From: an uncultured bacterium
GTDB taxonomy: Bacteria > Krumholzibacteriota > Krumholzibacteriia > LZORAL124-64-63
Direction of reading: 5' to 3'
NCBI GenBank assembly: GCA_963732385.1
Contig: CAVSZB010000009.1
Location: 1-17,853 of the forward strand
Length of the DNA: 17,853 nt
How positions within the stretch are numbered: position 1 is the stretch's first letter; each line of letters starts with the position of its first letter. Both the position numbers and the translations under genes were made by a program. The notes under the pieces were generated by a model, which was not told where the DNA came from, did no database searches, and was given only the letters and a program-made list of their open reading frames with translations. Shown one piece after another: positions 1 through 17,853 of the stretch.

Positions 1-107
1 CAGGGCGAAATCACTCTCTGTGGGGCTGTCAACTTTGGGCGTGTATCCGGGGGGCGGATCTGGTGCGCGGTAAGTGGCGGGATGCCATAGCGGCACCGGC
101 CGTCTCC

Positions 108-146
108 AACAAAGAGGGCGCCGTCGCCGTGGCCGGCGCCCATTTT
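108..146 (-). terminator. Probable intrinsic terminator of the cytochrome-porin operon (possibly bidirectional)
   Basis: On the minus strand, GGGCGCCG-(10 nt)-CGGCGCCC is followed by TCTTTGTT, about 20 nt after the porin stop. A T-run (ATTTT) also follows the stem on the plus strand. Confidence 0.6.
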
Positions 147-166
147 GTCGGGTCGGGCGAGGGGGT

Positions 167-2182
167 TCAGAACCGCCCGGTGAAGGATAGGCCGTAGAGG
201 TCGGCGGTGTAGTCGTCGTCGGAGACGGCGGTGAAATCGGTGCGGCGCCAGGTGGCGCTGAGGGCCAGGCGCGGGGTGAGGGCGCCGGTGAGGCGGGAGT
301 ACCAGCGGTCGGAATCGTTGGCCAGGTCGTCGCGGTTGCGGACCCGTTCGTAATGGGTCTCGAGTTCCCAGCCGTGGAGGGGGCGCAGCACGGCGCCGGG
401 TGAGAGACGGGAGGTCGTGCCCTTGTAGGTGGCCGGGTTGGTGACGTAGGGATCGACGGCCGCGGGCGGCAGCGGACCGGCGAGGCCGTACTCCTCCACG
501 CCGTAGGCGAACGAACCGAACAGGGACAGACGAGGCAGCGGCGTCCAGGTGCCGGTGCCGAACAGGCGGTGCGCGTCCCAGCTGCTGCCGCCGCCGGTGG
601 TATCGAGGCGCGTGAAGTCCTCGTCGATCAGTTCGGCCCCGGCGTCGAGATCGAGGTTGCCGGCGAGGCGGGCCCGGGCGGTCACCTCGGCGCGCAGCTT
701 CTCCCAGGAGCGGTCTCCCTGCGCGTACTGGCCCACGAGCGCGGTCTGATGTTCATCCACATTCTCGTGCCGGTACTCCACCCGGCCGGCGGCGCTCAGC
801 CGGCCGGACAGGCGTCGGCGCAACTTGAGGGCGAGCAGGTCGAGTGCCCGTTCGCGCTCGCCCGACTGCGCCCGCAGCAGCACGTTGCCGCCGACGAATT
901 CGTCGAGGGAGATCGTGTTGGAAGTTTCGTCCGTGATTTCGTGGCGCCAGTCGGCGTTGAGCACCGTGCCGTGCCGACCGGCGTGCTGGAAACCGAGGTT
1001 GTACACCTGCCGCGTGCGCTGCTTCTCGTAGCTGCTGCGCGTGCCGGTGAACGACTGTGCGTCGCGGACGAGCGTGGTCAGCCCCTCCTGATCCAGCTGC
1101 TGCAGCCGCGCCCCCAGGCGCAGCCGCGCTCCGGCCCATGGCCGCCAGACGAGCGTCGCCGCGCCGCTGTGCGCGCGGGCGCTGACCGCGATGGCGTCCG
1201 CGACGGCATCGCCGGACACGCTCGTGAGCGGCGTCTCCGTCAGGCTTTCGCGCGGGCGCGAGAAACGCCCCAGGTAGCCGTAGCCGCCGAGCAGCGTCAC
1301 GCGCGGCGTCGCCTCCCAGGCGCCGCCGGCGCGCACCGTCCAGGTACGGCGCTCATCGTCCCGGGCGTGGCGGTCGGTGAAAACCGTCGGGTCGGCCCGC
1401 CAGGTGGTCGTGGCGGCGCGGTCGCCGCCGTCACTCTGGAACTCCGCGTTCCAGTCGAGCGCCAGCCGGGCGCCGTCGTGCGTGCCGCCGAACCAGACGC
1501 GACGGGTCAGGATGTTGCGATCGAGCGCCGTAGGGGCGCCGAAGAGGTACGGTTCGCCGAGCAGGCCGCGTCCGAGCGAGGCGCGGGTCCCCTCCTGGCC
1601 GATGTGCTCGAAGCCGGCGCGCAGGCGCCACCCCGGGGCGACCCGGCGCGACCAGTCGATGCCGGCCATGGCCCAGCGGACGAGCGGATCGCCGCGGAAG
1701 CGACGCAGTTCGGGGTCGGCCAGGTACGGGTCGTTCGCCGTCGGATCGTCGTAGTGCGTCAGCCGGTGGTAGAAGATGCGATAGCGGCAGCCGTCCGGGT
1801 TCACCGCGGCGAAGACGAAGCTGCCCGGCATCCGGTCGTCGGTCGACAGTCGTCCCCGCAGCGTGAAGCGGCGGTCATCGCCGGCGGTGCCCCGCGCGTC
1901 GAACAGCGTGAAGCCGCGCCAGTCGTCGACCAGTCCCTCGTCCTGCGCCAGCATGGCGGCGCTCCCGGCGCGGTCGAGCCACGAAGCGCCGACGGTGATC
2001 CGCTCCGGCGCGCCGCCGGACGAGTCGCCCGGCGCGCCCCAGATCCGGCCGTACTCGACCGCCGACTGGGCGGCGGCCGCTCCCGGCAGCAGCAGCAGCA
2101 GGCAGCCAAACCCCGACGCCCGCAACCGGGCCGGCGCGGCGGCGAGGCAGCCCCTCCTTCTGGACAGGCATCCGTGTCTCAT
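167..2182 (-). CDS. mtrB: Outer-membrane beta-barrel protein, MtrB/PioB-like porin partner of the decaheme cytochrome
   Basis: 671 aa with an N-terminal signal peptide (LLLLLPGAAAA|Q), alternating amphipathic beta-strand pattern and C-terminal BAM-type signature YGLSFTGRF. It lies 12 nt downstream of an MtrA/DmsE-type gene, with an AGGAG RBS overlapping that gene's TAG. Size matches MtrB-family porins. The family call rests mainly on synteny. Confidence 0.75.
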   Translation of the reverse strand: MRHGCLSRRRGCLAAAPARLRASGFGCLLLLLPGAAAAQSAVEYGRIWGAPGDSSGGAPERITVGASWLDRAGSAAMLAQDEGLVDDWRGFTLFDARGTAGDDRRFTLRGRLSTDDRMPGSFVFAAVNPDGCRYRIFYHRLTHYDDPTANDPYLADPELRRFRGDPLVRWAMAGIDWSRRVAPGWRLRAGFEHIGQEGTRASLGRGLLGEPYLFGAPTALDRNILTRRVWFGGTHDGARLALDWNAEFQSDGGDRAATTTWRADPTVFTDRHARDDERRTWTVRAGGAWEATPRVTLLGGYGYLGRFSRPRESLTETPLTSVSGDAVADAIAVSARAHSGAATLVWRPWAGARLRLGARLQQLDQEGLTTLVRDAQSFTGTRSSYEKQRTRQVYNLGFQHAGRHGTVLNADWRHEITDETSNTISLDEFVGGNVLLRAQSGERERALDLLALKLRRRLSGRLSAAGRVEYRHENVDEHQTALVGQYAQGDRSWEKLRAEVTARARLAGNLDLDAGAELIDEDFTRLDTTGGGSSWDAHRLFGTGTWTPLPRLSLFGSFAYGVEEYGLAGPLPPAAVDPYVTNPATYKGTTSRLSPGAVLRPLHGWELETHYERVRNRDDLANDSDRWYSRLTGALTPRLALSATWRRTDFTAVSDDDYTADLYGLSFTGRF

Positions 2183-2194
2183 GGGGCGGCGCTC

Positions 2195-3145
2195 CTAGGG
2201 CTTCCGGTAGGTTTCATCAACGTTCGAGCCGTGGACCTCGACGTGGCAGTCGTAGCAGCGCGCCCGCCGCCCGAGGAACGCGGCATGGTCGGTCTGTCCG
2301 ATCACCGGGTAGCCCGGCTCGTGGTGGCAGCGCAGACAGAGCGAATTGCTGTCGGTGAGGAGCAGCCGGTCGTTGGGCGACCCGTGCGGACGGTGACAGA
2401 CCGTGCACGGCTCGGTGACGACCGCCTCGTGCTCGAAGACGAACGGTCCGGCCACCTCCGCGTGGCAGCGCAGGCAGGGACGCGCCTCGTCGTTGAGCGC
2501 CGACACGCCGCTCTGCTCGCCGTGCGGCGCGTGGCAGTCCACGCAGCCGATCTCCCCCTCGAGCACCGGATGGTGGTACTGCAGGCGGAAGTCGGCCAGC
2601 TGGCCCGGATGGCACTGGAGGCAGAACTCGCCGGCGATCCGGAAGGCCGCCTGGGGGCGATACCCCCTGGCGAAGTGCGCCTGGTCCGCGTGGCACTCGG
2701 CGCAGGAGGCGGTCGAGCCGGCGTGCGGGTTCTCCTCCCAGGAACGCTTCAGGCCGGTGTGGCACTGGAGGCAAAGGTCGGCGCGGACATCGGGCGACAG
2801 CGAACCGAGGGCGGCAACGCCGAGGACCGGTCCGGCGCCCCCCGCTTCCACGTGCAGGCTGCCGGGGCCATGGCATGCTTCGCAGAGGCCGGGGCCGTTG
2901 CCGGGGACCATGGTCCGGCGCCCGAGCGCATGCGGAGTGCCTCGATAGTACTCCGCCACCTCGGCGTGACACTCGGCGCACGCCTCGGAACCGACGAAAG
3001 AGGCTCCCGGCGGCGGCGCCGGGCGGTCGGCGACGCCGGCCACGGCCACGGCCACGGCCAAAACCAAGGCCGACACCGCCAGCGCCCCTGGCAGGATCCC
3101 GCCACGCAGGCTCCCGGCGCGGTTGTGCGCAGTCATCCCGCTCAC
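2195..3145 (-). CDS. mtrA: Periplasmic decaheme cytochrome c, MtrA/DmsE/PioA family
   Basis: Ten CxxCH motifs (CAECH, CEACH, CLQCH, CAECH, CLQCH, CVDCH, CLRCH, CTVCH, CLRCH, CYDCH). Family-typical strings include CEACHGPGSLH, HHPVLEG, GPFVFEH, CHRPHGS and C-terminal CHVEVHGSN. It has a hydrophobic signal peptide. The GTG start at 3145 overlaps the upstream TGA (GTGA); an alternative ATG is at 3136. Confidence 0.9.
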   Translation of the reverse strand: MSGMTAHNRAGSLRGGILPGALAVSALVLAVAVAVAGVADRPAPPPGASFVGSEACAECHAEVAEYYRGTPHALGRRTMVPGNGPGLCEACHGPGSLHVEAGGAGPVLGVAALGSLSPDVRADLCLQCHTGLKRSWEENPHAGSTASCAECHADQAHFARGYRPQAAFRIAGEFCLQCHPGQLADFRLQYHHPVLEGEIGCVDCHAPHGEQSGVSALNDEARPCLRCHAEVAGPFVFEHEAVVTEPCTVCHRPHGSPNDRLLLTDSNSLCLRCHHEPGYPVIGQTDHAAFLGRRARCYDCHVEVHGSNVDETYRKP

Positions 3146-4260
3146 CGCCCCGCGGCCAGGGTCTTGCGGCCGGTGGAGTGGATCGTCCCCGCGTACTGCG
3201 CGGCCCAGGCCCGGTCCTCGCCGGTGTGGCAGGCGAGGCAGGCGAAGTCCGTGGTCAGGTAGCCGTTGGCGAAGGTCTGCCCCTCCGCCGTATAGAACTG
3301 CGCCGCGTCGGCAGCGGGGTTGATGCGGAAAAGGTGCGCGCGGACGTCACCGCGGAACGGCGAGCCGGCAACGGCCGACTTCGTCGCGTAGGGCAGGTGG
3401 CAGTTGACACAGGTGTGCGCGCCATCACCGGTGTTGTAGATCTCGATATCGCCGTGGCAGTTCTCGCACTGCAAAACGACCCCCTGCGCCACCGCCTGGT
3501 GCGTCGTCGAATGCGGATCGTGACAGGCGACGCAGGTCAGCGTGTTGTGGGCGCCACCGAGCAGTTCGTCGTACTGAGCGTTGTTGCGGATGAAGCCGTC
3601 GGCCGCCTCGATCCGGTGGGCGGAATCGCCGCGGGAGTGGCACTCGCCGCACAGGCCGGCGTCACGGTCCAGCGCGATGTCGCTGGCCAGTTGCGACAAC
3701 GCGTGCGCACCGCCCGCGCCGTGGCAGCGCTCGCAATTGACCCCGTCCTGCAGCCAGGCACCGGCCAGCCCCGGCAAACCGCCCTGGTTCCCGTCCCCGG
3801 TGACGCCGGTGGCGTGGCAACGGGCACAGGTGAAGGCAAGGTTTGCCGCGTCCGGCTCGAACGGCCCGAAAACGAATGTCGCCAGGTTCCACTGCGCTGC
3901 GGCGCCGGTCAGGAGATACCCCTGACGGTCGACGAACCCGGCCTTCCACCCATGGCCGCCGATCACATAGAGGATATCGTTCCAGCCGCTGCCGGCAGGC
4001 GGGGTGGGCACGGCCGAGTACGGGAACAGGGGCGCGCGCTCGTCGACCACCCGGCTCAGCGCGAAGGCATGCCCGCTGTTGGCGAACAGCGCATACTCGG
4101 ACTGGTGGCAGGAACGGCAGGCCTGCGGACCGACATAGGCATGCTCGAGCGTGACCTCGCCCGGCAGGCGCACCGGCTCGATATCGTCCTCACACCCGAC
4201 CACCAGTGGCAGGATTCCGAGCGCCACGACCAAGCCGAGCGCGAACCTGAGGCGGATCAT
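3142..4260 (-). CDS. Octaheme c-type cytochrome lipoprotein
   Basis: ATG at 4260 is preceded by a GGAGGG RBS. Signal peptide ends in lipobox LVVG-C23. Eight CxxCH motifs (CRSCH, CARCH, CERCH, CGECH, CVACH, CENCH, CVNCH, CLACH) in 372 aa. First gene of the operon. Confidence 0.88.
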   Translation of the reverse strand: MIRLRFALGLVVALGILPLVVGCEDDIEPVRLPGEVTLEHAYVGPQACRSCHQSEYALFANSGHAFALSRVVDERAPLFPYSAVPTPPAGSGWNDILYVIGGHGWKAGFVDRQGYLLTGAAAQWNLATFVFGPFEPDAANLAFTCARCHATGVTGDGNQGGLPGLAGAWLQDGVNCERCHGAGGAHALSQLASDIALDRDAGLCGECHSRGDSAHRIEAADGFIRNNAQYDELLGGAHNTLTCVACHDPHSTTHQAVAQGVVLQCENCHGDIEIYNTGDGAHTCVNCHLPYATKSAVAGSPFRGDVRAHLFRINPAADAAQFYTAEGQTFANGYLTTDFACLACHTGEDRAWAAQYAGTIHSTGRKTLAAGR

Positions 4261-4412
4261 GATTCCCTCCCTGGAAAACGGTCCCCGGTCGCCAGCGGGC
4301 TCCCGGTGGCGCTGCCGCCGCAAGGCGACCCTGAACCCGCGCGGCCACGGCCGTCCTGGCGCAGGCTCCGGAGCTGATCCTCAGCAATCGCTATTCCTAG
4401 CGGACATGTGGG

Positions 4413-4441
4413 ATCTTGAAAACCGGGCTGAAGGGTGTCAA
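4413..4441 (-). promoter_or_regulatory. Putative sigma70 promoter for the octaheme-mtrA-mtrB operon
   Basis: Minus strand TTGACA (4441-4436), 17 bp spacer, then CAAGAT (4418-4413). The -35 is a perfect match and the -10 is partial. Confidence 0.5.
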
Positions 4442-4627
4442 GCGCAATGTCCTGCCGAGGCCGACGATATCGGATGCCGGCACTCCGCTTTCGCTCCACT
4501 TTTGAGTTTACCCCGGCCGCCGTCCGCCGATGATCATACTTGGTTGATAGGATTTCACCCCACCGTCGCGGTCACGCCATCTCGCCGGCCGCGACGACGG
4601 GCGGATACCTCAGCAGGAGGCGGATCC

Positions 4628-6550
4628 ATGTTCAGACGCTGGATGCTGGTGCTGCTCGGCTGCACCGTCCTGATGATCGGCCTCTCGTCGTGCGACGACG
4701 ATCAGGACACGACAGGTCCTGGAACGCAGCCGCTCATTTCCCAGATCACGGCCACTGCGACAATCGTCGATGCCGGCGGCCAGGTCACGCTCACGGTCAG
4801 CGCCTCCGGCACCGATCTGACCTGGCTCTGGACCGCCAGCGGCGGCACCTTCGACAGTCCGACGACCGCGTCGACCCTCTGGACCGCCCCCGCCGCCCCC
4901 GGCGTCTACCTGGTGTCGGTCACCGCCGCCGCCACGAACAACCTCACCGCGACCTCGAGCCGGGCGATCGGCGTCGAGATCGGGCTGCAGGTCTCGGCGG
5001 CCACCGCGTCGGTCCGGATCGCCAACCAGACCCGCATCGCGGCGCTGGCCGTCGGCGACGACCTGACCTATCAGTGGACCACCACCGCCGGCACGCTGAC
5101 CCAGGTCACGCCCGACACCGTGCTATGGCGCGCGCCCGAAGCGGTGCCGACCCAGAACCCGCGCGTGCAGGTCGTGGTGACGGACGGCTCGGGCAACGCC
5201 CGCACGGAAGCGGTCGAACTGCAGGTCACGGCCTATCTTCCGACCGACGCTCCGGTCTACCGCGGCGACGCCTACTGCGGGCTGTGCCACGTCGGCACGC
5301 ACGCGAACTGGTCAACCACTGCCCACAAGACGGCGTACGAAACGCTGGCCGCGATCGGCATGGGCCAGAACGCCTACTGCCTCGGCTGCCACACCGTCGG
5401 CTCCGTCGGCCTGGACGCGGATCCGGCCCTCGACAACGGGGGCTACGACGAGATTCCGATCGCAGCGCTGCGCGGCGTGCAGTGCGAGAACTGCCACGGA
5501 CCGGGCGGCAACCACCCCGGCACGCAGCCGACACTGCCGGTCAGTTTCGCGGCCGAAACCTGCGGCGACTGCCACAACGGCGCGCACCACCCGTTCTACG
5601 ACGAGTGGGCCGGCTCCGGCCACGGCAACTCCGACCTGCTCGACGGCGGCTCGCCGGCCCGCAACCGCTCCTGCGCGAAGTGCCACAACGGACTCAACGC
5701 CGCCACCTACCTCGACAATCCGCCCGGGTTCGTCAACCCGGCGACCAACCCCACCGTGGCCGGCAAAATCAACTGCCAGACCTGCCACTCGTCGCACGGC
5801 ACCGAGAACCGGGCCGACCTGCGCAACGCCGCCGCCACCGACGTCGTTTTGCCCGACGGCTCGGTCATCCCGCAGGCCGGCGCGGGGCGTCTCTGCATGG
5901 CGTGCCACAACGGGCGCCGCACTCTCACGAACATCACCGACCAGCTGAACAACGGCACCGCCCACCTCGGTCCGCACCACAGTTGCCAGGGCGACATGCT
6001 GGCCGGAACCGGCGCCAACGAGGCGATCAATCCCGGCTTCCCCTGGGGATCGAGCACCCATCTCCAGATCCAGGACGGCTGCGTGAGCTGCCACACGCAC
6101 GCCAAAGCGAACGACGTCGATGCCGGCGTGCCGAACTACACCGGGCATGACTTCCAGCCCACGGTCGAGGCGTGCCAGACGTGCCACGGCGCGATCAGCG
6201 CTTTCAGCGACGTCGCGGCGATCGCCGATTACGACGACGACGGCGAGGTCGAGGGGATCCAATTCGAGGTTGCCGGGCTGATCGAGACCCTGCACGAGAC
6301 GATCCTCGACCGCAGCGACTCCCCGGAGCAGCGCCAGGCGCTCGTGGACGACTACGAGGCAAGCATCGGCGATATCACCATCTCGAACATCGCCCAGCGC
6401 AACGCCGCCTACAACCTGGCCTTCGTGGAGTTCGACGCCAGCCACGGCGTGCATAACGCCAAGTACGCCATTCAGTTGTTGCAGCAGAGCATCCTGTATC
6501 TCGCGCCACCCGAAAAGGTCACGCGGCATTGGAAGCTGCTGCTCGACTAG
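4628..6550 (+). CDS. Nonaheme c-type cytochrome lipoprotein with two N-terminal Ig/PKD-like domains
   Basis: AGGAGG RBS at 4615-4620 and ATG at 4628, giving 640 aa. Lipobox LSS-C22. Two Thr/Val-rich beta-sandwich repeats (DLTWLWTASGGTF..LWTAP and DLTYQWTTTAGTL..LWRAP). Nine CxxCH motifs (CGLCH, CLGCH, CENCH, CGDCH, CAKCH, CQTCH, CMACH, CVSCH, CQTCH). Helical C-terminus with DASHGVHNAKYAIQLLQQSI. Confidence 0.88.
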   Translation: MFRRWMLVLLGCTVLMIGLSSCDDDQDTTGPGTQPLISQITATATIVDAGGQVTLTVSASGTDLTWLWTASGGTFDSPTTASTLWTAPAAPGVYLVSVTAAATNNLTATSSRAIGVEIGLQVSAATASVRIANQTRIAALAVGDDLTYQWTTTAGTLTQVTPDTVLWRAPEAVPTQNPRVQVVVTDGSGNARTEAVELQVTAYLPTDAPVYRGDAYCGLCHVGTHANWSTTAHKTAYETLAAIGMGQNAYCLGCHTVGSVGLDADPALDNGGYDEIPIAALRGVQCENCHGPGGNHPGTQPTLPVSFAAETCGDCHNGAHHPFYDEWAGSGHGNSDLLDGGSPARNRSCAKCHNGLNAATYLDNPPGFVNPATNPTVAGKINCQTCHSSHGTENRADLRNAAATDVVLPDGSVIPQAGAGRLCMACHNGRRTLTNITDQLNNGTAHLGPHHSCQGDMLAGTGANEAINPGFPWGSSTHLQIQDGCVSCHTHAKANDVDAGVPNYTGHDFQPTVEACQTCHGAISAFSDVAAIADYDDDGEVEGIQFEVAGLIETLHETILDRSDSPEQRQALVDDYEASIGDITISNIAQRNAAYNLAFVEFDASHGVHNAKYAIQLLQQSILYLAPPEKVTRHWKLLLD

Positions 6551-6578
6551 CCCGGCACGCCAACGTACCGTGTCACCG

Positions 6579-6611
6579 GGAGCCGGACCCCGCGGTCCGG
6601 CTCCTGCGTTT
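6579..6611 (+). terminator. Intrinsic terminator after the nonaheme cytochrome gene
   Basis: Perfect 11-bp stem GGAGCCGGACC-ccgc-GGTCCGGCTCC followed by TGCGTTT, 28 nt after the stop. Confidence 0.7.
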
Positions 6612-6658
6612 GCCGGCGTCCAGCTCCGCCACCGCGCCATCGCCACCGGCCGGCTATG

Positions 6659-6667
6659 TGCTATATT
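6659..6667 (+). promoter_or_regulatory. Putative extended -10 promoter element for the S1 gene
   Basis: TGcTATATT (TGn + TATAAT-like) in a locally AT-rich patch about 70 nt upstream of the S1 ATG. Confidence 0.4.
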
Positions 6668-6735
6668 CATGAGTCAGAGAAACCGGCCGCCCGGAGGGCG
6701 GCGACCTGCGCTGGATCCAGGGAAAGGGACACGAG

Positions 6736-7887
6736 ATGTTCGAGCAAGACGACGACGACGGCATCACCGGCGACACGCCCGACACCGGTGCGGAGGACTT
6801 CGCCCAGCTGCTGGCGAACGAGCGCAGCGAACCGGCGAAACCGGAGCCGCAACCAGGCGAAAAGGTCACCGGGACCATTGTCCAGATCGGAGACACGGAG
6901 GCGTTCGTCGATTGCGGCGGACGCGCCGAGCTGCCGATCGCGCTGCGCGAGCTGCAGAACAACAAGGGCGAATTTAACTTCGCCGTGGGGTCGACCATCA
7001 CCGCCTGGGTCCGGCTCGACGGCGAGAAGCAGTACCTGTCGATCTCCGGTCACGCGCGCGGGCGCGACACCGCGCCGATCGAGGAGGCCCACCGTTCCGG
7101 CATGCCGCTGTCGGGAATCGTCAGGGAGACGAACAAGGGCGGCTTCGTGATCGATCTCGGCGGGCACCGCGCATTCTGTCCCATCTCCCAGATCGACTCG
7201 CACTTCGTCGAGGATCCGCAGGTCTTCGTCGGCCAGACGCTGCAGTTCCGGGTCGTCGAATTCGGCGCCGGCGGACGCACCCTCGTCGTTTCGCGGCGCG
7301 CCATCCTGAGCGAGGAGATCGCGGCCCGGGCCGCCGAAACCCGCAGCACCCTCAAGACCGGCGACGTGCGCGAAGGCACGGTCTGCCGACTGATGACCTT
7401 CGGCGCCTTCGTCGACATCGGCGGCGTCGAAGGGCTGGTCCACGTTTCCGAGATCTCCCACGAACATGTCGAGTCGCCCATGGCCGTGCTGCACCCCGGC
7501 CAGACCGTTCAGGTGCAGGTGATCGGCATCCAGAATCTCGGCGAGGGGAAGGCGGAGCGCATCAGCCTGTCGATGAAGGCTCTCACCGGCGATCCGTGGC
7601 AGGACGCGGCGCGCGCGCTGCAACCGGGGACCAACGTCACCGGCACCGTCCGGCGGCTGGCGGACTTCGGCGCATTTGTCGAACTGCTGCCGGGCGTGCA
7701 GGGAATGGTGCACGTGTCGGAGCTTTCGCACGAACGCATCCGCCACCCGCGCGACGTGGTGCGCGAAGGCGAAGCGGTCACCGTGCGGATTCTCGAGTTC
7801 GATGCCGCCCGCAAGCGGATCTCGCTCTCTTTGAAGCAGGCCGGGGGCGATGGCGACGACGACGAGGCGGACGGACCGGAAGCGTGA
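6736..7887 (+). CDS. rpsA: 30S ribosomal protein S1-like protein with four S1 domains
   Basis: 383 aa with four S1/OB repeats (GEKVTGTIVQI..., NKGGFVIDLGGHRAFCPISQID, FGAFVDIGGVEGLVHVSEIS, FGAFVELLPGVQGMVHVSELS...RISLSLK), acidic termini and a GAAAGGGA RBS. Confidence 0.85.
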   Translation: MFEQDDDDGITGDTPDTGAEDFAQLLANERSEPAKPEPQPGEKVTGTIVQIGDTEAFVDCGGRAELPIALRELQNNKGEFNFAVGSTITAWVRLDGEKQYLSISGHARGRDTAPIEEAHRSGMPLSGIVRETNKGGFVIDLGGHRAFCPISQIDSHFVEDPQVFVGQTLQFRVVEFGAGGRTLVVSRRAILSEEIAARAAETRSTLKTGDVREGTVCRLMTFGAFVDIGGVEGLVHVSEISHEHVESPMAVLHPGQTVQVQVIGIQNLGEGKAERISLSMKALTGDPWQDAARALQPGTNVTGTVRRLADFGAFVELLPGVQGMVHVSELSHERIRHPRDVVREGEAVTVRILEFDAARKRISLSLKQAGGDGDDDEADGPEA

Positions 7888-7897
7888 CGGCCCGGTC

Positions 7898-9085
7898 TCA
7901 GCCCCCAGGAGAGCCGGTCGGACCGGCCTGCCTCCACTCCTGGCGCAGCCGGGCGACCGCATCCACGAGGGTCCGCGCCGCGTAGTCGACCTCTTGCGCG
8001 GTAGTGCCGCGGCCAAGCGCCATGCGCACGGTCGCCAGGGCGAGTTCGCGCGGCAGGCCCAGCGCCAGCAACACCGGCGACGGATCCCCTTCCCCGCTGG
8101 CGCAGGCCGCGCCGGACGACACGGCCAGGGTCGGCACGGCGGCCAGCAGACGGCGCGGCGGTATCCCCTCGAAACTGAGACTGAGGCTGCCGGGCAGCCG
8201 GCGCTCGGGATCGCCGTTGAGGCGCACCCCCGGCAGCCGCTCACGCACCCACGCCAAAAGCCGCGCCGCCAGCTCCCGCAACCGCTCTCCCTCCGCCCCC
8301 ATCTCGGCCCGCGCCAGGCGGCACGCCTCCCCCAGGGCCACGATCCCCGGCACGTTCAGGCTGCCGGCACGCAGGCCCCGCTCCTGACCACCCCCGGTCA
8401 GGAGGGGGGCGAGCGTGATCCTGGGCGCCCGCCGACGCACGTAGAGCGCCCCCACTCCCTGCGGCGCGTACAGCTTGTGTCCCGACAAAGAGAGCAGGTC
8501 GATATTGTCGGCATCCACGTCGAGCGGCACTTTGCCGACCGCCTGCGCCGCATCCGTGTGGAACACGACGCCGCGGGACCGGCACAGCGCGCCGATCTCA
8601 CGCACCGGCTGCACGGTGCCGAGCTCGTTCTGCGCCGCCATGATCGACACCAGCGCCGTGTCGGCGGCGAGCGACGCGGCGACGGCGGCAGGATCGACCA
8701 CCCCGTCGGATCCGGCCGGCACCACCGTGACACGCCAGCCGTGCGCCGCCAATTCCGCCAGCGGCTCCCGCACCGCTTCGTGCTCGAAGCCGCTCGTGAC
8801 AACGTGACCCGGCGCACCGGCCCGGGCGGCCGCGAATCCCTTGAGGGCCAGGTTGTTCGCCTCGGTCGCGCCGGAGGTGAAGACGATCTCGCGCGCGGTG
8901 GCGCCGATCATCAGGGCCACCTCCTCGCGCGCCGCCTCGACCAGACTCGCCGCGGCCCAGCCGTAGGCGTGGGTGGCGCTGGCGGGATTGCCGAAGTGGA
9001 CCTCGAGCGCCTCGCGCATCTTCGCAAGCACGCGCGGATCGGGCGGGGTGGAGGCGTGGTGGTCGAGGTAGACCGGCAGCCGCAT
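7898..9085 (-). CDS. iscS: Cysteine desulfurase, IscS/NifS (group I) type
   Basis: Motifs YLDHHASTP, FGNPAS, EIVFTSGATEANNLA, HTDAAQAVGK, SGHK (PLP lysine), GGGQERGLRAGS and catalytic loop SSGAACASG. Confidence 0.9.
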   Translation of the reverse strand: MRLPVYLDHHASTPPDPRVLAKMREALEVHFGNPASATHAYGWAAASLVEAAREEVALMIGATAREIVFTSGATEANNLALKGFAAARAGAPGHVVTSGFEHEAVREPLAELAAHGWRVTVVPAGSDGVVDPAAVAASLAADTALVSIMAAQNELGTVQPVREIGALCRSRGVVFHTDAAQAVGKVPLDVDADNIDLLSLSGHKLYAPQGVGALYVRRRAPRITLAPLLTGGGQERGLRAGSLNVPGIVALGEACRLARAEMGAEGERLRELAARLLAWVRERLPGVRLNGDPERRLPGSLSLSFEGIPPRRLLAAVPTLAVSSGAACASGEGDPSPVLLALGLPRELALATVRMALGRGTTAQEVDYAARTLVDAVARLRQEWRQAGPTGSPGG

Positions 9086-9149
9086 GGTCGTGGCGCCCTT
9101 CCCCCGCGGCGCGCCGGCCCGCGGCCGCGCGCGGTCGGGGCGGACCGGA

Positions 9150-10106
9150 TCAACTCAACGCGAGCATCCTGAGAATCGGCCGTTCGGCCTGCCGCCGCAG
9201 CTCCTCCGGAATGGTGATTTCCGGATTCCGGTCGCGCAGGCAGAGGTAGAGCTTCTCCAGGGTGTTCTTCTTCATGTGCGGACACTCGTTGCAGCTGCAC
9301 GATTCGTCCGCGCCGGGGGCGGGAATGAACTCCTTGCCGGGATTCTCCTTGCGCATCTGGTGGAGGATGCCGGCCTCCGTAACCACGATGACGCGCCGCG
9401 CCGCGGTCTCCTGCGCGAAGCGCAGGATGGCGGTCGTCGAACCGATGAAATCGGCGTGCTGCAGAACCCCCTCCGTGCACTCGGGATGGGCGACCACCGC
9501 CGCGTCGGGATGCCGCACCTTCAATTCCACCAGCTTCCTCTCGCTGAAGACCTCGTGGACTTCGCACGACCCCGGCCACAGCACGAGCGGCCGGCCGAGT
9601 TGCTTCGCCACCCACGCCCCGAGGTGACGGTCAGGCGCGAAGATGAGCGGCTCGTCGGCCGGAAATGACCCCGCGATCCGCACCGCGTTGGACGAGGTGC
9701 AGATCACGTCGCTGAGCGCCTTGGTGTGGGCCGAGCAGTTGATGTAGCTGATGACCCGGTGACCGGGGTGCCGCGCCACGAAGGCGGCAAAGGCGTCGGC
9801 CGGACAGCCATCCGCCAGGCTGCAGCCGGCCGTCAGGTCGGGCAGCAGGACCTGTCGGTCCGGATTGAGGATTTTGGCCGTCTCGGCCATGAAGTGGACC
9901 CCGGCGAAAACGATGACGTCGGCCCGGGTCGCCGCGGCCTGCTGGGCCAGCGCCAGGCTGTCGCCGATGAAGTCGGCCACGTCCTGGATGTCCGGCTCCT
10001 GGTAGTAGTGCGCCAGGATGACCGCGTTGAGGCGGCGCCGCAGATCGTCAATACCGGCGAACAGATCGAAACCTGGCTCCAGGACCGAGGTCACGGGAAC
10101 GGCCAT
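9150..10106 (-). CDS. nadA: Quinolinate synthase NadA
   Basis: Motifs [72 protein letters not shown] and [11 protein letters not shown] at 10106 has a GGGGAG RBS, giving 318 aa; the longer ORF-track start at 10256 is unlikely. Confidence 0.96.
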
Positions 10107-10228
10107 GATGACTCCCCGCGCAGCGGACGCCGGGCCCCGGGCGGGGGGCCTGTGATCGTTCCCAATTTCGCCCCGGGAGGCTGTGGCGGCAAGCTCCGCT
10201 TCCGGTCCGCCCCCCCCCCAGCCAAGGG

Positions 10229-10257
10229 TGGACTTTCCCCGCGCCCGGTCATACATT
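10229..10257 (+). promoter_or_regulatory. Putative sigma70 promoter for the beta-propeller lipoprotein gene
   Basis: TGGACT (10229-10234), 17 bp spacer, then TACATT (10252-10257) in the only AT-rich patch of the intergenic region. Confidence 0.45.
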
Positions 10258-10395
10258 TATCAGTCGGATGGTCGCCCCGGACGGGCGGCTGCCGCAGCCC
10301 GGGGCCGGCCGGCCGGCGCCGGGGTGGAAGTGGAATGGAAACCCCCACGCCTTCCCCGAAGGGTTCTGGCAGACATGCACGAGGGAGAATTGGCC

Positions 10396-11487
10396 ATGAC
10401 CGGTCGCCATCCCGGCCGCCAGGGGCGGCTGCTCGCCCGCGGCGCCGCCCTCCTGACGGGCCTTCTGCTGCTCGGCCTGGCCGGCTGCGGCGAGAAGATC
10501 AAGTCCTTCACCTACGACCCGCCGCCGGAGACGACCAGCCAGCCCTGGCTGCTCGACATCTGGGGCAGCGGGCCGGACGATATCTACATCGTCGGCCGAC
10601 CCGGCGTCCTGCTCCACTGGGACGGGACGGAGTGGGCTCTGCAGCCCCTCGGCACCAGTGAAACCCTCACCGCCGTGTGGGGTACCGGACCGGCGGACGT
10701 CTTTGTGGTCGGCCACAAGGGGCTCGTGTACCACTTCAACGGCTCCGGCTGGTCGCAGATGGGCAGCGGCACGAGCCGCAACCTCTATTCCGTTGGCCGC
10801 GGCCCCGGCAATGCGATCTACATCTGCGGCGAAAGGGCGGTCCTGTTCCGTCTCGACGGCGGAAACTGGGTGGCCACGCCCGACACGGCCATGCTCTACA
10901 ACGCGGCCGGCACCGCCACTGAAGACACGCTCCTGCGCAGCCGCTTCCAGATCGTGGCGCTCACCTCCGTGACGCCCTACGCCATCAGCGGCAGCGACGG
11001 CGTGGCTCTGATGATCGATACCAAGCCCACCCGCTGGCGCCGCGGCCACATCGACAGCCGCGACTGGATCAACACCGGCTGGGGCGGCGCGAACATCCCG
11101 GACAACTGGCTGATCAGCGACACCGGCAGGCTGTACCGTCTGCAACCGGAGCTGTCGTGGCTCGAGGTGGGCAGCCCCTCCACCATCGCCGTGGACGACA
11201 TGTGGGGCACGCCCGACGCGTTGACCTACTACTTTGTGACCCGCGACGGGGACATCGTGCGGCGCAGCGCGGACGGCACGAGCACCACGCTCGTCTACGA
11301 CGGCGGCTTCTGGCTCTCGGGCATCTGGGGCAGCGCTGCCGATGACATCTACGCCGTCGGATACGACGGCGTGCTGGTGCACTGGGACGGCAGCGCCTGG
11401 TCGACCCTCACCGTGCCGCTGCCGGCGGCTAAGACGCTTCCGGTCGACGCCGTCGAGACCGACAGGTTTGGCCGGCCGCTGCTTTGA
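10396..11487 (+). CDS. Lipoprotein with Trp-rich repeats, predicted 7-bladed beta-propeller, function unknown
   Basis: GAGGGAG RBS, ATG at 10396 and lipobox LAG-C. About seven repeats of type L-x-x-I-W-G-S-x-x-D-D-I-Y-x-V-G-x-x-G-x-L-x-H-W-D-G-x-x-W. Confidence 0.75.
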   Translation: MTGRHPGRQGRLLARGAALLTGLLLLGLAGCGEKIKSFTYDPPPETTSQPWLLDIWGSGPDDIYIVGRPGVLLHWDGTEWALQPLGTSETLTAVWGTGPADVFVVGHKGLVYHFNGSGWSQMGSGTSRNLYSVGRGPGNAIYICGERAVLFRLDGGNWVATPDTAMLYNAAGTATEDTLLRSRFQIVALTSVTPYAISGSDGVALMIDTKPTRWRRGHIDSRDWINTGWGGANIPDNWLISDTGRLYRLQPELSWLEVGSPSTIAVDDMWGTPDALTYYFVTRDGDIVRRSADGTSTTLVYDGGFWLSGIWGSAADDIYAVGYDGVLVHWDGSAWSTLTVPLPAAKTLPVDAVETDRFGRPLL

Positions 11488-11524
11488 GCTCGTCGCCCCG
11501 CGCCGAGCGATCGCAATTTCTCCT

Positions 11525-11556
11525 GACCCGGCCCCCTTCAGGGCCGGGTCTGTTTT
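11525..11556 (+). terminator. Intrinsic terminator
   Basis: 10-bp stem GACCCGGCCC-ccttca-GGGCCGGGTC followed by TGTTTT. Confidence 0.75.
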
Positions 11557-11590
11557 CGTTCACCCCAGAGTCCGGTTCGGGAGGTCCCGC

Positions 11591-13561
11591 ATGAACTGTT
11601 CTCGACACCTCAGCCGTGTATTCGCCGGTCTGACACTCGCCCTGGGCATTTTGGCCGCCGGCGCCGGCATGGCCTACGATCCCGATCCCTCGGCTCCCCG
11701 CGCCTCCGTGCCGGGCAGTTTCCAGTGGCAGCCGGGCCATCTCTTCCCCACCGTCGAGGCGTGGGAGCAGGAGTTCGCGGCGACGAGCGCCGAACTGCCC
11801 TCCCTCGATCAGTGGCGCGGCAAACTGGGCGAATCCCCCGAGGCGATCTACGACTGCCTCGAAACCCTCTACCGCCTGCGCGACCGTCTCTACACGCTCT
11901 ACCTGTACGCCGACAGCCGCTTCAACGGCGACCAGAGCGTCGATGAGAACAAGGTGCGGACCGGCCGCATCCAGATGCTGTTGCCCGCCTTCGGGCAGGC
12001 GATCTCCTACGTCGAGCCCGAACTGCTGACCATCGATCAGGGCGTGCTCGACGGCTTCCAGGCCCGGCACGCGGGCCTGGGCGGGACCTATCGCTTCTAC
12101 CTGCAGAATGTGCGCCGCCTCAAGGCCCACACGCTGTCGCCGGGCGAGGAAAAGATCCTCGCACTGACCGGCAACCTGGCCGAGGTGCCGGCCGCGATGC
12201 ACGAGGCGATGCTGAACCTCGACGTCGAGTTCCCCCAGCTGGTCGACGAACAGGGCCGCTCGGTCCCGCTCACCCTCACCGGATTCAGCCGCTACCGCTC
12301 CTCCCCCGTCTACAACGTGCGCCGGCAGGCGGCCGATTCGTTCTTCGCCACCCTCCGCCAGTACGAGAACACGCTGGCCACCTCGCTCGACGGCGCGGTC
12401 AAGGCCCACATCCTGAACAAGGAAGCGCGCGGTTACGCCTCCTGCCTCGAGGCGGCGCTGACCCCCGACGCCATCTCCCCCGCCGCCTACAACATGCTGG
12501 TGGAGACGATCGGCGCGAACCTCGGCCGCTCGCTGCACAAGTACATCGCGCTGCGCCGCAAGGTGCTCGACCTCGACGGCCCGGTCACGTTCGCGAACCT
12601 CTACAATCCGCTCGTGGATGAGGTGGAGGAGAACTACCCCTTCGTCCAGGCGCAGGAGATGATCGTGGCCGGCCTCAAACCGCTCGGCCCCGACTACCTC
12701 GCGCAGTTGCGCACCGGCCTCGACCCCGCCAACGGCTGGATCGACGTCTACCCGAACGAGGGCAAGCGAGGCGGCGCCTACAGCAACGGCAGCGCGCGCT
12801 CGGCGCACCCGTTCATCCTGCTCAACTACGACAACAGCCTCGACGCGGTATCGACCACGGCGCACGAACTCGGCCACGCCATGCACTCCGTCTACAGCAA
12901 CCGCAGTCAGCCGGCGGTCTACTCCGGCTACACCACCTTCCTGGCCGAGGTCGCCTCCACCTGCAACGAGGCGCTGCTGCTCGACTACATGCTCTCCCGC
13001 ACGACCGACATCCCGCAGCGGCTGAACCTGCTCAACCAGCGCCTCGAGAGCATCCGCCTCACCATCTTCCGCCAGACGCTGTTCGCCGATTTCGAGCAGC
13101 GCTTCCACGCGCACGCCGAGCAGGGCGAGCCGCTCACGGCCGCCTTCCTCGACGCGACGTACAGGGAACTGATCCAGAAATACTACGGCCCGGACTACGC
13201 GATGGGCGAGAACGATGAGGTGGAGTGGGCCTTCATCCCCCACTTCTATTACAACTACTACGTCTTCTCCTACGCGACCGGCCTCACGAGCGGCCTCTCG
13301 CTCGCCACGCAGATCACCGCCGGCGGCCAGCCCGCAGCCGACCGCTACATCAACGGTCTGCTCAAGCAGGGCGCCTCCGCCCCCCCCCTGACCCTGCTGC
13401 GCAACGCCGGCGTCGACCTCGAAACGCCGCGCCCCATCCTCGACATGCTCGACCTGTTCGAAAAGACCGTCGCCGAATTCGACCGCACCTGGACCCAGCT
13501 CCAGCAGCAGCGGGCGGCGGCGGGCAAACCGGGCAAGGGGGGCAAGGGCGGAAAGGCCTGA
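11591..13561 (+). CDS. pepF: Oligoendopeptidase F (peptidase family M3B) with N-terminal signal peptide
   Basis: GGAGG RBS and ATG at 11591. Motifs WIDVYPNEGKRGGAYS, HPFILLNY, zinc motif AHELGHAMHS, FLAEVASTCNE, TIFRQTLFADFE and EWAFIPHFYYNYYVFSYATG. Confidence 0.93.
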   Translation: MNCSRHLSRVFAGLTLALGILAAGAGMAYDPDPSAPRASVPGSFQWQPGHLFPTVEAWEQEFAATSAELPSLDQWRGKLGESPEAIYDCLETLYRLRDRLYTLYLYADSRFNGDQSVDENKVRTGRIQMLLPAFGQAISYVEPELLTIDQGVLDGFQARHAGLGGTYRFYLQNVRRLKAHTLSPGEEKILALTGNLAEVPAAMHEAMLNLDVEFPQLVDEQGRSVPLTLTGFSRYRSSPVYNVRRQAADSFFATLRQYENTLATSLDGAVKAHILNKEARGYASCLEAALTPDAISPAAYNMLVETIGANLGRSLHKYIALRRKVLDLDGPVTFANLYNPLVDEVEENYPFVQAQEMIVAGLKPLGPDYLAQLRTGLDPANGWIDVYPNEGKRGGAYSNGSARSAHPFILLNYDNSLDAVSTTAHELGHAMHSVYSNRSQPAVYSGYTTFLAEVASTCNEALLLDYMLSRTTDIPQRLNLLNQRLESIRLTIFRQTLFADFEQRFHAHAEQGEPLTAAFLDATYRELIQKYYGPDYAMGENDEVEWAFIPHFYYNYYVFSYATGLTSGLSLATQITAGGQPAADRYINGLLKQGASAPPLTLLRNAGVDLETPRPILDMLDLFEKTVAEFDRTWTQLQQQRAAAGKPGKGGKGGKA

Positions 13562-13584
13562 CCAGGCACGACCGTCGTGAAATC

Positions 13585-13618
13585 GGAAGGCCGCGGCCCC
13601 ACGGGATCGCGGCCTTCC
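13585..13618. terminator. Hairpin between convergent pepF and ATPase genes, probably a bidirectional terminator
   Basis: GGAAGGCCGCGG...TCGCGGCCTTCC inverted repeat between two converging stop codons. T-tails are weak. Confidence 0.55.
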
Positions 13619-13633
13619 CGCTTATGCCGTAGC

Positions 13634-14809
13634 TCAGGCCAGCGCTCCGTCCCAGAGCTGCGCGCAGAACAGTCGCCAGGGCAGGATCTCGATCCCGTCG
13701 TCGGTGGTGCGGGGTTCATCCGTGCGCGCGACGATGATCGCCCGACCGACCCGATGTTCCTCCTTCAGCGCCCTGAGCCCCCGGAAATCGGCGGCTCGGA
13801 CATGGCGGCCCGACTTGATTTCGATGGCCGCCTCGAGGTCGCCGACGATGAGGTCGACTTCGTAGCCCGAGTGGGTCCGCCAGAACGTCAGCGGACGGTC
13901 ATCTCGATGGTAGGCAAGGTACGCACGCACTTCATTCAGCAGAAAGTGTTCGAAGGCGCGGCCGTACAGATCCGAGCCCTCGACCACCACGGTCGCCTCC
14001 GGGTGCAGAGCGCGCGCGACGCCCACATCGAACAGGTAGTACTTCGCGGTCTCGACGAGACGGCGCCGTGAGCTTTTCCGCCACGGCTCCAGCGTGTATC
14101 CCAGCAGCGTGTCATCGAGGATCTGGAAGTAGTTGCGGACCGTGCTCGGCGAGACCCCCGTTTCGCGCGCGATATTCGCGTAGTTGAGCTGCTGGGCATG
14201 CATCAGCGCGACAACCTGGAGGAAGCGGGCGAAGGCGGGAACATTGCGCGTCGCCGATTCGCCGATGATCTCCTCGCGGATGTACGCGTTCACGTAGGCC
14301 TTCAGCCGGGGGGACGGCTCGTCAACCAGATAATGGACGGGCAGACCGCCGTGGTGGAGGTACCGGTCCAGATCGAGGTCGGGGATCTCGCGGCTCGTCA
14401 GCGGCAGCAGATGATGTTCGACCGCCCGTCCACCCAGCAGATTGCGGGCGCGCCGCCGCAGCGTGCGCGCGCTGGACCCGCACAGCAGGAAGCGCGTGGC
14501 GGTGTTTTCGAGCAGCCAGTGCACCTCTTCCAGCAGGGCCGGCACTTTCTGGATTTCATCCACCACGACGACCGGCGGTCGGGTAGCGAGGATCTGCTCC
14601 CGCAACAACTTCGGCGTAACGCTCAGCTCGGCGCTCAACGTGGTGTCCAGCAGGTCGTAGAAGCGGGCCGTAGGGAAGCGCTGGTGCAACAGCGTGGTCT
14701 TGCCTGACTGGCGAGGCCCCCACAGAAATGCCGCAGCCGAACCCGTGACGGGGTTGAGAGACCACGGCAAGACCAGCAATCTATGGAAGTTGACTGGCGG
14801 TTCGCTCAA
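13634..14809 (-). CDS. AAA+ ATPase (AAA_14) with C-terminal DUF4143/PD-(D/E)xK-like domain
   Basis: Walker A GPRQSGKTT, Walker B VVVDEIQK, LCGSS, LLGGRA, GGLP, KYYLFDVGV, GRAFEHFL and FWRTHSGYEVDLIV...IEIKSG. The start is uncertain: there is no ATG near the expected N-terminus (FHRLLVLP), so TTG 14809 was chosen. Confidence 0.85.
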   Translation of the reverse strand: MSEPPVNFHRLLVLPWSLNPVTGSAAAFLWGPRQSGKTTLLHQRFPTARFYDLLDTTLSAELSVTPKLLREQILATRPPVVVVDEIQKVPALLEEVHWLLENTATRFLLCGSSARTLRRRARNLLGGRAVEHHLLPLTSREIPDLDLDRYLHHGGLPVHYLVDEPSPRLKAYVNAYIREEIIGESATRNVPAFARFLQVVALMHAQQLNYANIARETGVSPSTVRNYFQILDDTLLGYTLEPWRKSSRRRLVETAKYYLFDVGVARALHPEATVVVEGSDLYGRAFEHFLLNEVRAYLAYHRDDRPLTFWRTHSGYEVDLIVGDLEAAIEIKSGRHVRAADFRGLRALKEEHRVGRAIIVARTDEPRTTDDGIEILPWRLFCAQLWDGALA

Positions 14810-15050
14810 GTGGTGATTATCGCGAAATACAGCAACATTGCCAACGATTTTCACAAGGCGTCGGGATGGATAATCGATCAACCAGCAGACTGAAGTTTCT
14901 GTACTTTAGGTATCCGAGTCGGTGATCTGAGGCGGAGGCATCACCCACGACGGCTCTCGCCCAAAAACCATCGCAAACGACACCCCCGCCCCACGAGCGC
15001 TATCCTGGCTAACGGCACGGAGGCGATCAATCGCATCGGCTGGAATCGGC

Positions 15051-15100
15051 TGGAAAACATGTGAATCCCGATGTAGAATGAGACGCATATCCAATTGGAT
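15051..15100 (+). promoter_or_regulatory. Putative promoter and operator of the XRE regulator gene
   Basis: TGGAAA (15051-15056), 17 bp spacer, TAGAAT (15074-15079), followed by the perfect palindrome ATCCAATTGGAT (15089-15100). Confidence 0.45.
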
Positions 15101-15129
15101 CCGCCGCAGTCATCAATCATCTGAAGGGT

Positions 15130-16539: not shown

Positions 16540-16609
16540 GCTCCCTGTTCCCCTCCCGGGCGATCCGCCGAGCGCCCGGAATCATCTGGCAGACCACGGC
16601 GGGCGGGGG

Positions 16610-17612: not shown

Positions 17613-17754
17613 TGCCGCCCTCCCGGCGAATAGCGATCCAGGATACCCGACACGTATCCACCCGGTATCGGTACGAAAGGGCCCGACCTGAGCCGGGAGG
17701 GCGACGCGGCGGGGGGCTCGTGCGTCGGCAACCTGGCCGCGCTCGCAGGACGGC

Positions 17755-17788
17755 AAACAAGAAGGGCCCGCCCTCCGGGCAAGCCCTT
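17755..17788 (-). terminator. Intrinsic terminator downstream of tRNA-Lys
   Basis: Minus strand AAGGGCTTGCCC-gga-GGGCGGGCCCTT (stem with G-U pairs) followed by CTTGTTT, about 17 nt after the tRNA CCA. Confidence 0.65.
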
Positions 17789-17805
17789 GTCCCACTTGAA
17801 GTTGT

Positions 17806-17853
17806 TGGTAGGCCGCTCCGGACTCGAACCGGACACCATCTCCTTAAAAGGGA
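17806..17853 (-). tRNA. tRNA-Lys(UUU), 3' portion; 5' end lies beyond the window edge
   Basis: Minus strand reads TCC-CT TTT AA-GGAGA (anticodon arm), TGGTGT, CCGG-TTCGAGT-CCGG (T arm), then AGCGGCCTA-CCA (encoded CCA). Confidence 0.9.

What the first reader, a model, noticed from the sequence alone, without database searches (positions are those of the whole stretch)
167..6550. Non-canonical porin-cytochrome extracellular electron transfer cluster: MtrAB with an octaheme and a divergent nonaheme lipoprotein instead of MtrC
Seen: four genes with 27 CxxCH motifs (8+10+9). The octaheme, decaheme and porin genes are tightly coupled (GTGA overlap; RBS overlapping a stop), and the nonaheme gene is divergent across a 367-bp spacer, with terminators closing both ends. 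Known: MtrAB, PioAB, MtoAB and DmsEF form outer-membrane electron conduits, and in Shewanella MtrCAB the surface partner is the decaheme lipoprotein MtrC. Inference: the position MtrC occupies in mtrCAB is taken here by an apparently unrelated 372-aa octaheme, with a second lipoprotein cytochrome potentially co-regulated. This would be a distinct conduit architecture for metal, humic, electrode or cell-to-cell electron exchange. The direction of electron flow cannot be read from the sequence.
Basis: partly seen in the sequence, partly recalled or inferred. Interest (0 to 1): 0.85.

Follow-up and report, generated by a model that had tools for sequence, protein, structure and literature searches.

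The report
MtrAB conduit with two OcwA-type lipoproteins
Four neighbouring genes in an uncultured bacterium encode a ten-heme cytochrome, a predicted 26-strand outer-membrane barrel and two heme-rich predicted lipoproteins related to OcwA, a surface reductase of Gram-positive metal reducers; together they likely carry respiratory electrons out of the cell, an untested variant of a known wire.

Summary
In detail: 8+10+9 CxxCH motifs, tight coupling, 367-bp divergent spacer. The decaheme passes the DmsE/MtrA model. The porin misses the MtrB Pfam model but folds as a 26-strand, plug-less barrel whose best match is MtrB (TM 0.69; TonB receptors 0.46 or less). Neither lipoprotein is an MtrC. The octaheme folds like MccA/OcwA/OmhA. 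The nonaheme matches OcwA motif for motif, on an Ig-like stalk. The host is likely Krumholzibacteriota. The full layout recurs in three other genera. Related decaheme-porin pairs carry other caps, and octaheme caps fall in separate clades (one clade rejected), so caps look swappable. The octaheme has lost OcwA's His-His pair in 4 of 5 nonaheme-paired loci, hinting at a relay-plus-terminal-reductase split. Outward flow is favoured (OmcS-like and cytochrome b/c genes in the genome) but not shown. Both lipoprotein families also occur without a conduit. My paper searches found no description, but this scan noted the same MtrAB + OcwA-type octaheme module earlier in Armatimonadota and Acidobacteriota. 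Verdict: new variant of a known kind.

The parts
116..141 (.). GC-rich hairpin with T-rich tails on both strands; likely terminator after the porin
   Evidence: (called on + strand only)
167..2182 (-). Outer-membrane beta-barrel, 671 aa; predicted 26 strands, no plug; divergent MtrB-type porin
   Evidence: AF2 pLDDT 87, strands counted from DSSP; Foldseek top hit MtrB 6r2q_B TM 0.69; no own MtrB_PioB hit; 18 of 54 family members hit it at E<=0.1
2195..3145 (-). MtrA/DmsE-family decaheme cytochrome c, 316 aa
   Evidence: TIGR03508 195.7 bits vs cut-off 192.2; MtrA 6r2q_A E 6.5e-40
3142..4260 (-). Octaheme predicted lipoprotein (Cys23), 372 aa; MccA/OcwA-type fold without the C-terminal helix bundle; NN in place of the family's HH pair
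4261..4627 (.). 367-bp divergent spacer; a CTTGAC element facing the octaheme recurs in all 5 spacers compared (possible -35 box)
   Evidence: read from the printed spacers; the promoter scanner did not call it
4628..6550 (+). OcwA-type nonaheme predicted lipoprotein (Cys22), 640 aa: PKD/Ig-like N-terminal region, 9 hemes, HH320/321, HH450/451, Met457, C-terminal helical region with DASHGVHN
   Evidence: no structure model made
6579..6604 (+). Perfect GC-rich hairpin after the nonaheme, weak T tail; possible terminator
   Evidence: not called by the scanner

Best explanation
The locus encodes an MtrA-family decaheme, a predicted MtrB-like 26-strand barrel and two OcwA-clade predicted lipoproteins that likely form an outward electron conduit across the outer membrane. 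Shown: family of the decaheme, predicted fold of the barrel and octaheme, OcwA-type motifs of the nonaheme, conserved gene order. Inferred: (1) the decaheme sits inside the barrel as MtrA does in MtrB; (2) the co-transcribed octaheme is displayed on the surface and docks on the outer end of the wire, taking MtrC's role; (3) the divergently encoded nonaheme, lifted on Ig-like domains and keeping both His-His pockets, would be the terminal reductase that receives electrons from the octaheme and reduces Fe(III)/Mn(IV) oxides, humics or flavins; (4) electrons would come from the quinol pool through the genome's cytochrome b/multiheme c or NapC/NrfH-like proteins.
For: Decaheme over the TIGR03508 cut-off and E 6.5e-40 to MtrA. 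Barrel: 26 strands, best match MtrB TM 0.69, TonB receptors <=0.46; nearest named Atlas cluster MtrB/PioB at 0.98, but recognition 2254 is below the tool's 2300 mark, so weak support. In all 40 porin-positive relatives that I read (of 54) the upstream gene is a decaheme, one cut by a contig end. Octaheme model matches MccA, OcwA and OmhA (E 2e-10 to 3e-8, TM 0.47-0.60). Nonaheme profile's best solved match is OcwA (E 2e-19), with H320/H321/H450 invariant and H451/M457 nearly invariant in 92 sequences. OcwA is a surface terminal reductase with two HH pockets (PMC6703420 passages). All 4 nonaheme hits in the host's family (4 of 86 genomes) are divergent from an octaheme. Nonaheme-family genes lie beside a same-strand MtrA-like gene in 18 of 80 metagenome loci. 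Octaheme homologues are common as lipoproteins in Chloroflexota, which lack an outer membrane (recalled), fitting a cell-surface habit. In G056 a cytochrome b/11-heme gene follows the porin on the same strand and a NapC/NrfH-like gene follows the nonaheme; the host has a 73%-identical copy of the former elsewhere and an OmcS homologue (E 3e-55).
Against: No experiment, expression data or complex model. Neither lipoprotein family needs a conduit: 0 of 80 loci from the cross-phylum octaheme scan had an MtrA-like neighbour (about half are distant relatives, many are short, and only 3/64 of the collection was scanned). The 4 nonaheme hits in other families of the phylum show no MtrA-like or porin-profile neighbour in the stretches fetched. 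G014 (98% complete) has the octaheme-decaheme-porin operon but no nonaheme hit. Asp at +2 of the nonaheme would mean inner-membrane retention under the E. coli rule (recalled). No secretin reached the GspD cut-off. The octaheme model is as close to the sulfite reductase MccA as to OcwA. Direction cannot be read from MtrAB sequence (PMC8805035 passages), and Cyc2 as well as OmcS genes were reported in Krumholzibacteria (PMC7914226 passages).
Confidence: 0.62

Rival explanations
1. Same architecture, but used for electron uptake (Fe(II), reduced humics, cathode or a partner cell), as in PioAB/MtoAB or the conduits of ANME partner bacteria.
For: MtrAB homologues work in both directions (PMC8805035 passages). 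The porin family is closest among NCBIfam models to GSU2204/OmcL (37 of 54 members at E<=0.1), and OmcKL homologues are proposed for uptake in HotSeep-1 (PMC10553843 passages). The genome has ACIII-like genes (label recalled).
Against: The characterised clade members on cell surfaces, OcwA and OmhA, are reductases. The cytochrome b/11-heme neighbour resembles Geobacter CbcL, a quinol oxidase for outward flow (label recalled). I did not search for Cyc2.
Confidence: 0.15
2. The lipoproteins stay on the periplasmic side and feed or drain an uncapped decaheme-porin pair; nothing replaces MtrC outside.
For: Nonaheme +2 Asp (E. coli retention rule, recalled); MccA and c554, same clade, are periplasmic (recalled); both families occur without conduits; the Ig-like stalk could span the periplasm.
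Against: Acidic runs after the Cys (CEDD, CDDD) also resemble the surface-export signal of Bacteroidota (recalled), and Krumholzibacteriota are listed in the FCB group. The octaheme is translationally coupled to the decaheme. OcwA-clade genes sit beside MtrA-like/porin pairs in several lineages.
Confidence: 0.13
3. The conduit powers a surface enzyme for a soluble N or S oxyanion (nitrite, hydroxylamine, sulfite, polythionates), in the way DmsEF feeds extracellular DmsAB.
For: OcwA reduces nitrite and hydroxylamine in vitro; the octaheme model matches MccA; sister conduits of the same porin family carry rhodanese lipoproteins, pointing to S/Se chemistry.
Against: No CxxCK motif among the 27. 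OcwA's nitrite turnover is low, 1 per min, and it does not reduce sulfite. The octaheme lacks the HH pair. The genome has separate OTR-like and HAO-like multihemes.
Confidence: 0.1
4. Not exclusive of the above: the three-gene operon is the conduit and the nonaheme is only a neighbour inherited with it.
For: Separate strand; missing in G014; stands without a conduit in 4 genomes of other families. The five paired loci are related, so not independent.
Against: 4 of 4 nonaheme hits in the family keep the head-to-head position although flanking genes differ; HH loss in the octaheme is seen in 4 of 5 paired loci, while both halves of the G014 tandem and the five f8 conduit octahemes keep HH.
Confidence: 0.3

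Closest known systems
Shewanella MtrCAB (PDB 6R2Q)
   Same: MtrA-family decaheme followed by a 26-strand barrel; a lipoprotein cytochrome gene directly upstream (order lipoprotein-A-B).
   Different: No MtrC (no TIGR03507 match over cut-off in the genome); the upstream gene is a 372-aa MccA/OcwA-fold octaheme; porin 11% identical to MtrB in the structural alignment; a second, divergent lipoprotein cytochrome.
OcwA of Thermincola potens (PDB 6I5B) and OmhA of Carboxydothermus ferrireducens (PDB 6QVM)
   Same: Nonaheme: 9 hemes, two HH pairs, a conserved Met, C-terminal helical motif. Octaheme: hemes 1-4 with the beta-sheet insertion.
   Different: OcwA and OmhA act on Gram-positive surfaces; OmhA is described as not tied to porin-cytochrome complexes (PMC7829351 passages). 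The nonaheme lacks the beta-sheet insertion and adds a lipid anchor and Ig-like domains. The octaheme lacks OcwA heme 5, the helix bundle and here the HH pair.
MccA sulfite reductase (PDB 4RKM)
   Same: Best Foldseek match of the octaheme model (TM 0.54-0.60 on the query); eight-heme core equal to OcwA hemes 1-4 and 6-9.
   Different: About half the length, no long C-terminal helices, no CxxCK or CX15CH motif; copper site not tested.
Geobacter Pcc / OmcKL (GSU2203-GSU2204) and OetABI
   Same: Porin + periplasmic cytochrome + outer lipoprotein cytochrome logic; weak matches to the GSU2203 and GSU2204 models.
   Different: Below both cut-offs (192 vs 325 bits; 19.8 vs 350); the porin has no CxxCH.

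Membership tests
MtrA/DmsE decaheme (TIGR03508) | Ten CxxCH motifs and score over the family cut-off | tested here: met
   10 motifs; 195.7 vs 192.2 bits
MtrB/PioB porin (PF11854, TIGR03509) | HMM score over the cut-off | tested here: not met
   No hit for the window protein; 18 of 54 relatives hit PF11854 at E<=0.1, best 9.6e-10
MtrB/PioB porin (fold) | 26-strand barrel without plug, encoded directly after the decaheme | tested here: met
   Predicted model; gene order
TonB-dependent receptor | 22 strands plus N-terminal plug (recalled) | tested here: not met
   26 strands, no plug; TM <=0.46
MtrCAB system | MtrC/OmcA-family surface decaheme | tested here: not met
   Octaheme 22 bits vs 209; genome-wide none over cut-off; UndA TM 0.09
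MtrCAB system | Decaheme bound inside the porin; cap bound to its outer face | not tested
OcwA-type nonaheme | Nine CxxCH, two HH pairs, Met ligand candidate, C-terminal helix bundle | tested here: met
   Nonaheme: against PMC6703420 passages; second HH and Met placed by inspection after heme 7; no 3D model
OcwA-type nonaheme | Beta-sheet domain between hemes 1 and 2 | tested here: not met
   Hemes 1 and 2 are 34 residues apart in the nonaheme, 97 in the octaheme
OcwA-type (octaheme) | Nine hemes, HH pocket at heme 2, helix bundle | tested here: not met
   8 hemes, NN for HH, no long helices; same structural clade all the same
NrfA/MccA enzymes | CxxCK active-site heme; CX15CH motif in MccA | tested here: not met
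   All Cys in the mature octaheme other than the lipid Cys lie in CxxCH
Surface terminal reductase | Surface exposure and reduction of extracellular acceptors | not testable with these tools
   Needs localisation and activity assays

The most novel reading that the evidence does not exclude
OcwA-clade cytochromes are a second general class of caps for MtrAB-type wires, recruited several times. In this lineage the job is split: a His-His-less octaheme acts as a pure relay on the barrel and a stalked nonaheme with two open heme pockets acts as the terminal reductase, joining the Gram-negative wire to the Gram-positive surface reductase.
Probability: 0.3. Interest if true: 0.72.

Novelty: new variant of a known kind. 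Interest (0 to 1): 0.55.

Why it matters
Screens for extracellular electron transfer look for MtrC and for the MtrB Pfam model; this locus has neither, so such conduits would be missed (54 of 86 genomes of the host's family carry this porin type). It links the Gram-negative MtrAB wire with OcwA, known as a Gram-positive solution, and gives a natural series of one chassis with different caps, which makes testable whether the cap sets the substrate and the direction of flow. It also suggests a respiratory role in metal or humic cycling for an uncultured phylum.

Full report
Observation. The four ORFs, their heme counts (octaheme 8, decaheme 10, nonaheme 9), the GTGA overlap, the AGGAG over the decaheme stop and the 367-bp spacer are as described. 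Shuffled versions of the proteins never gave more than 2 CxxCH motifs in 2000 tries each. Hairpins lie at both ends, but terminator-like sites are not enriched over shuffles and only the one at 122-138 was called. The window is contig C9 of a 3.8-Mb, 96%-complete assembly. It overlaps the ends of C7 and C4, so the frameshifted copy on C7 is read as the same locus. The closest named homologues are labelled Candidatus Krumholzibacteriia (82% for the octaheme), so the host is inferred to be Krumholzibacteriota.

The core. The decaheme passes TIGR03508 (195.7 vs 192.2 bits) and matches Shewanella MtrA over its length (E 6.5e-40). The 671-aa protein has no Pfam hit, and the genome has no PF11854 match. 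From 46 relatives in the exhaustive search and fetched loci I built a 54-row alignment. 18 rows hit MtrB_PioB and 37 hit the GSU2204 model at E<=0.1. The AlphaFold model (pLDDT 87, pTM 0.82) has 26 strands by my count of the DSSP elements and no plug. Foldseek ranks MtrB first (E 3e-13, TM 0.69, 11% identity); the TonB receptors listed score 0.46 or less.

The lipoproteins. Both have OcwA (6I5B) as best solved match by sequence (E 2e-13 and 4e-10) and by profile (5e-29 and 2e-19), and they are homologous to each other. The octaheme model (pLDDT 89) matches only MccA, OcwA and OmhA at E<=0.001 (TM 0.47-0.60); the MtrC-family UndA scores 0.09. These three proteins form one structural clade (PMC9250108 passages). 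The octaheme keeps hemes 1-4 with the beta-sheet insertion, skips OcwA's heme 5 (my reading of motif order) and has no helix bundle. The nonaheme has all nine hemes, HH320/321 aligned to the first OcwA HH pair, a second HH450/451 with Met457 after heme 7 (placed by inspection), and the C-terminal DxSxGVHN motif; these residues are invariant or nearly so in 92 sequences. OcwA's two HH pairs cap open, five-coordinate hemes, and it is proposed as a terminal reductase (PMC6703420 passages). The nonaheme lacks the beta-sheet insertion and has a PKD/Ig-like N-terminal region. It was not modelled.

A His-His difference. Most octaheme-family members carry H at the two positions (47 and 44 of 70). The window and G155 have NN, G056 and G193 have NY, and G046 keeps HH: lost in 4 of 5 nonaheme-paired loci. 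The G014 tandem and the five f8 conduit octahemes keep HH. Some homologues outside these loci also lack it (16 of 70 rows have N at the first position), and the five loci are kin, so this is a lead, not a result.

Conservation. Of 200 relatives in the phylum, 54 had the porin (all in the host's family, 54 of 86), 48 the octaheme at E<=1e-20 and 8 the nonaheme at E<=1e-40. I read the surroundings of 40 of the 54 porins; each follows a decaheme. The complete four-gene layout is in G046, G056 and G193, three other genera. G155 shows nonaheme and octaheme up to its contig end. G014 has a 16-heme tandem octaheme and no nonaheme hit. G166 is split over contig ends. Most other porin loci carry a different cap, a likely selenocysteine multiheme plus rhodanese lipoprotein. 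In family f8, five genomes pair the octaheme with a distant decaheme and a shorter porin homologue. In quick trees the f1 conduit octahemes form one clade (SH-aLRT 97), four f8 ones another (100), and G027 sits elsewhere; one clade is rejected (p-AU 1.5e-6). The decaheme tree is consistent with this. So caps appear to be exchanged on an MtrAB chassis, as argued for MtrC diversity in PMC8805035 (passages).

Results against a tight link. None of 80 loci from the cross-phylum octaheme scan had an MtrA-like neighbour (partial scan, many distant or short loci). The four nonaheme hits outside the family have none either. On the other side, 18 of 80 metagenome loci of the wider nonaheme family have a same-strand MtrA-like neighbour, 15 with a porin-like ORF.

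Location and direction. Both are inferred. The acidic residues after the lipid Cys can be read as inner-membrane retention (E. coli rule) or as a surface-export signal (Bacteroidota); both rules are recalled, not tested. Secretin-like genes are present but below the GspD cut-off; cytochrome c assembly genes are present; no MtrC passes the cut-off. The genome has an OmcS homologue, a cytochrome b/11-heme protein resembling CbcL (label recalled), NapC/NrfH-like, Hmc-like and ACIII-like genes. In G056 the CbcL-like gene follows the porin directly. I put outward respiration at about 0.62, uptake at 0.15, periplasmic partners at 0.13 and a surface oxyanion enzyme at 0.10.

What is in print. Searches for Krumholzibacteriota + multiheme + porin, OcwA with porin-cytochrome terms, non-MtrC MtrAB clusters, OmcKL/GSU2204 and Verrucomicrobia porin-multiheme clusters showed no paper describing an OcwA-clade cap on MtrAB. 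The library lacks most subscription papers. I saw passages of PMC7914226, PMC9769843, PMC10553843, PMC7829351, PMC6703420, PMC9250108, PMC12133095, PMC8805035 and PMC5615132, the abstract and outline of PMC4245776, and only listings for the rest; no supplements, whose gene tables may hold such clusters. PMC7829351 notes that OcwA's nearest nonahemes come from Gram-negative bacteria. PMC5615132 reports other porin-multiheme clusters with an extracellular cytochrome; I did not test whether they match the metagenome loci here. PMC7914226 reports OmcS and Cyc2 genes in a Krumholzibacteria genome. Two unchecked notes of this scan describe MtrAB with an OcwA-related octaheme in Armatimonadota and Acidobacteriota; I had stated the OcwA reading before seeing them.

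Verdict. A real, conserved porin-cytochrome locus that works like MtrCAB but is not a member of it: new variant of a known kind, interest 0.55. The pairing of a His-His-less octaheme with a stalked OcwA-type nonaheme is its most distinctive and least tested feature.

Noticed in passing
L046-L078, L263-L265 (e.g. L046:2148-3632, - strand): Sister clusters of the same porin family have another cap downstream (in the loci read in full, after a TetR-like gene; label recalled): a multiheme lipoprotein split by an in-frame TGA in a conserved G-TGA-GG context in 29 of 31 loci where the gene was seen (36 examined; the other 2 have an open frame without Cys there), followed by a rhodanese lipoprotein in the loci read in full. 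Likely a selenocysteine multiheme with no NCBIfam family. SECIS not tested.
   Followed up: partly
G000:C7:17284-25680 (L279), about 8-16 kb beyond window base 1: OmcS-like hexaheme (6EF8, E 3e-55), a second hexaheme frame and a 42-heme cytochrome: a possible nanowire cluster near the conduit.
   Followed up: partly
L043:5265-7433 (G014); also L131, L133, L089, L090: Tandem fusions of two octaheme units (15-16 hemes); in G014 the fusion sits in the cap position and the nonaheme was not found.
   Followed up: partly
L196-L258 (18 of 80 metagenome loci): OcwA-type nonaheme next to a 7- to 10-heme MtrA-like gene, with a large porin-like ORF seen in 15; the ~720-aa set is a profile homologue of the window's porin (HHalign 99.3%). 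Lineage not determined.
   Followed up: partly
L079-L081, L083, L086 (family f8): Decaheme + 520-540-aa porin homologue (HHalign 98.6%) + octaheme, an independent pairing; other f5/f8 genomes have a 5- or 6-heme gene in that slot.
   Followed up: partly
window 1-9232 and 9690-17853: The window bridges two contigs: it overlaps the start of C7 and the end of C4 at about 98% identity, so these contigs can probably be joined through it.
   Followed up: yes
window 10183-11487 (+): ORF encoding a likely lipoprotein with repeated WG..P.D/W.F.G..W motifs (propeller-like); no Pfam or NCBIfam hit.
   Followed up: no
window 6736-7887 (+): Short, four-domain S1-type RNA-binding protein directly after the nonaheme; same neighbour in G046 and G155.
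   Followed up: no
G000:C7:1181621-1184767 and C7:1248073-1257508: OTR-like octaheme next to an unassigned porin-like gene; an HmcABC-like cluster with 19- and 13-heme genes beside the cytochrome b/11-heme gene.
   Followed up: no
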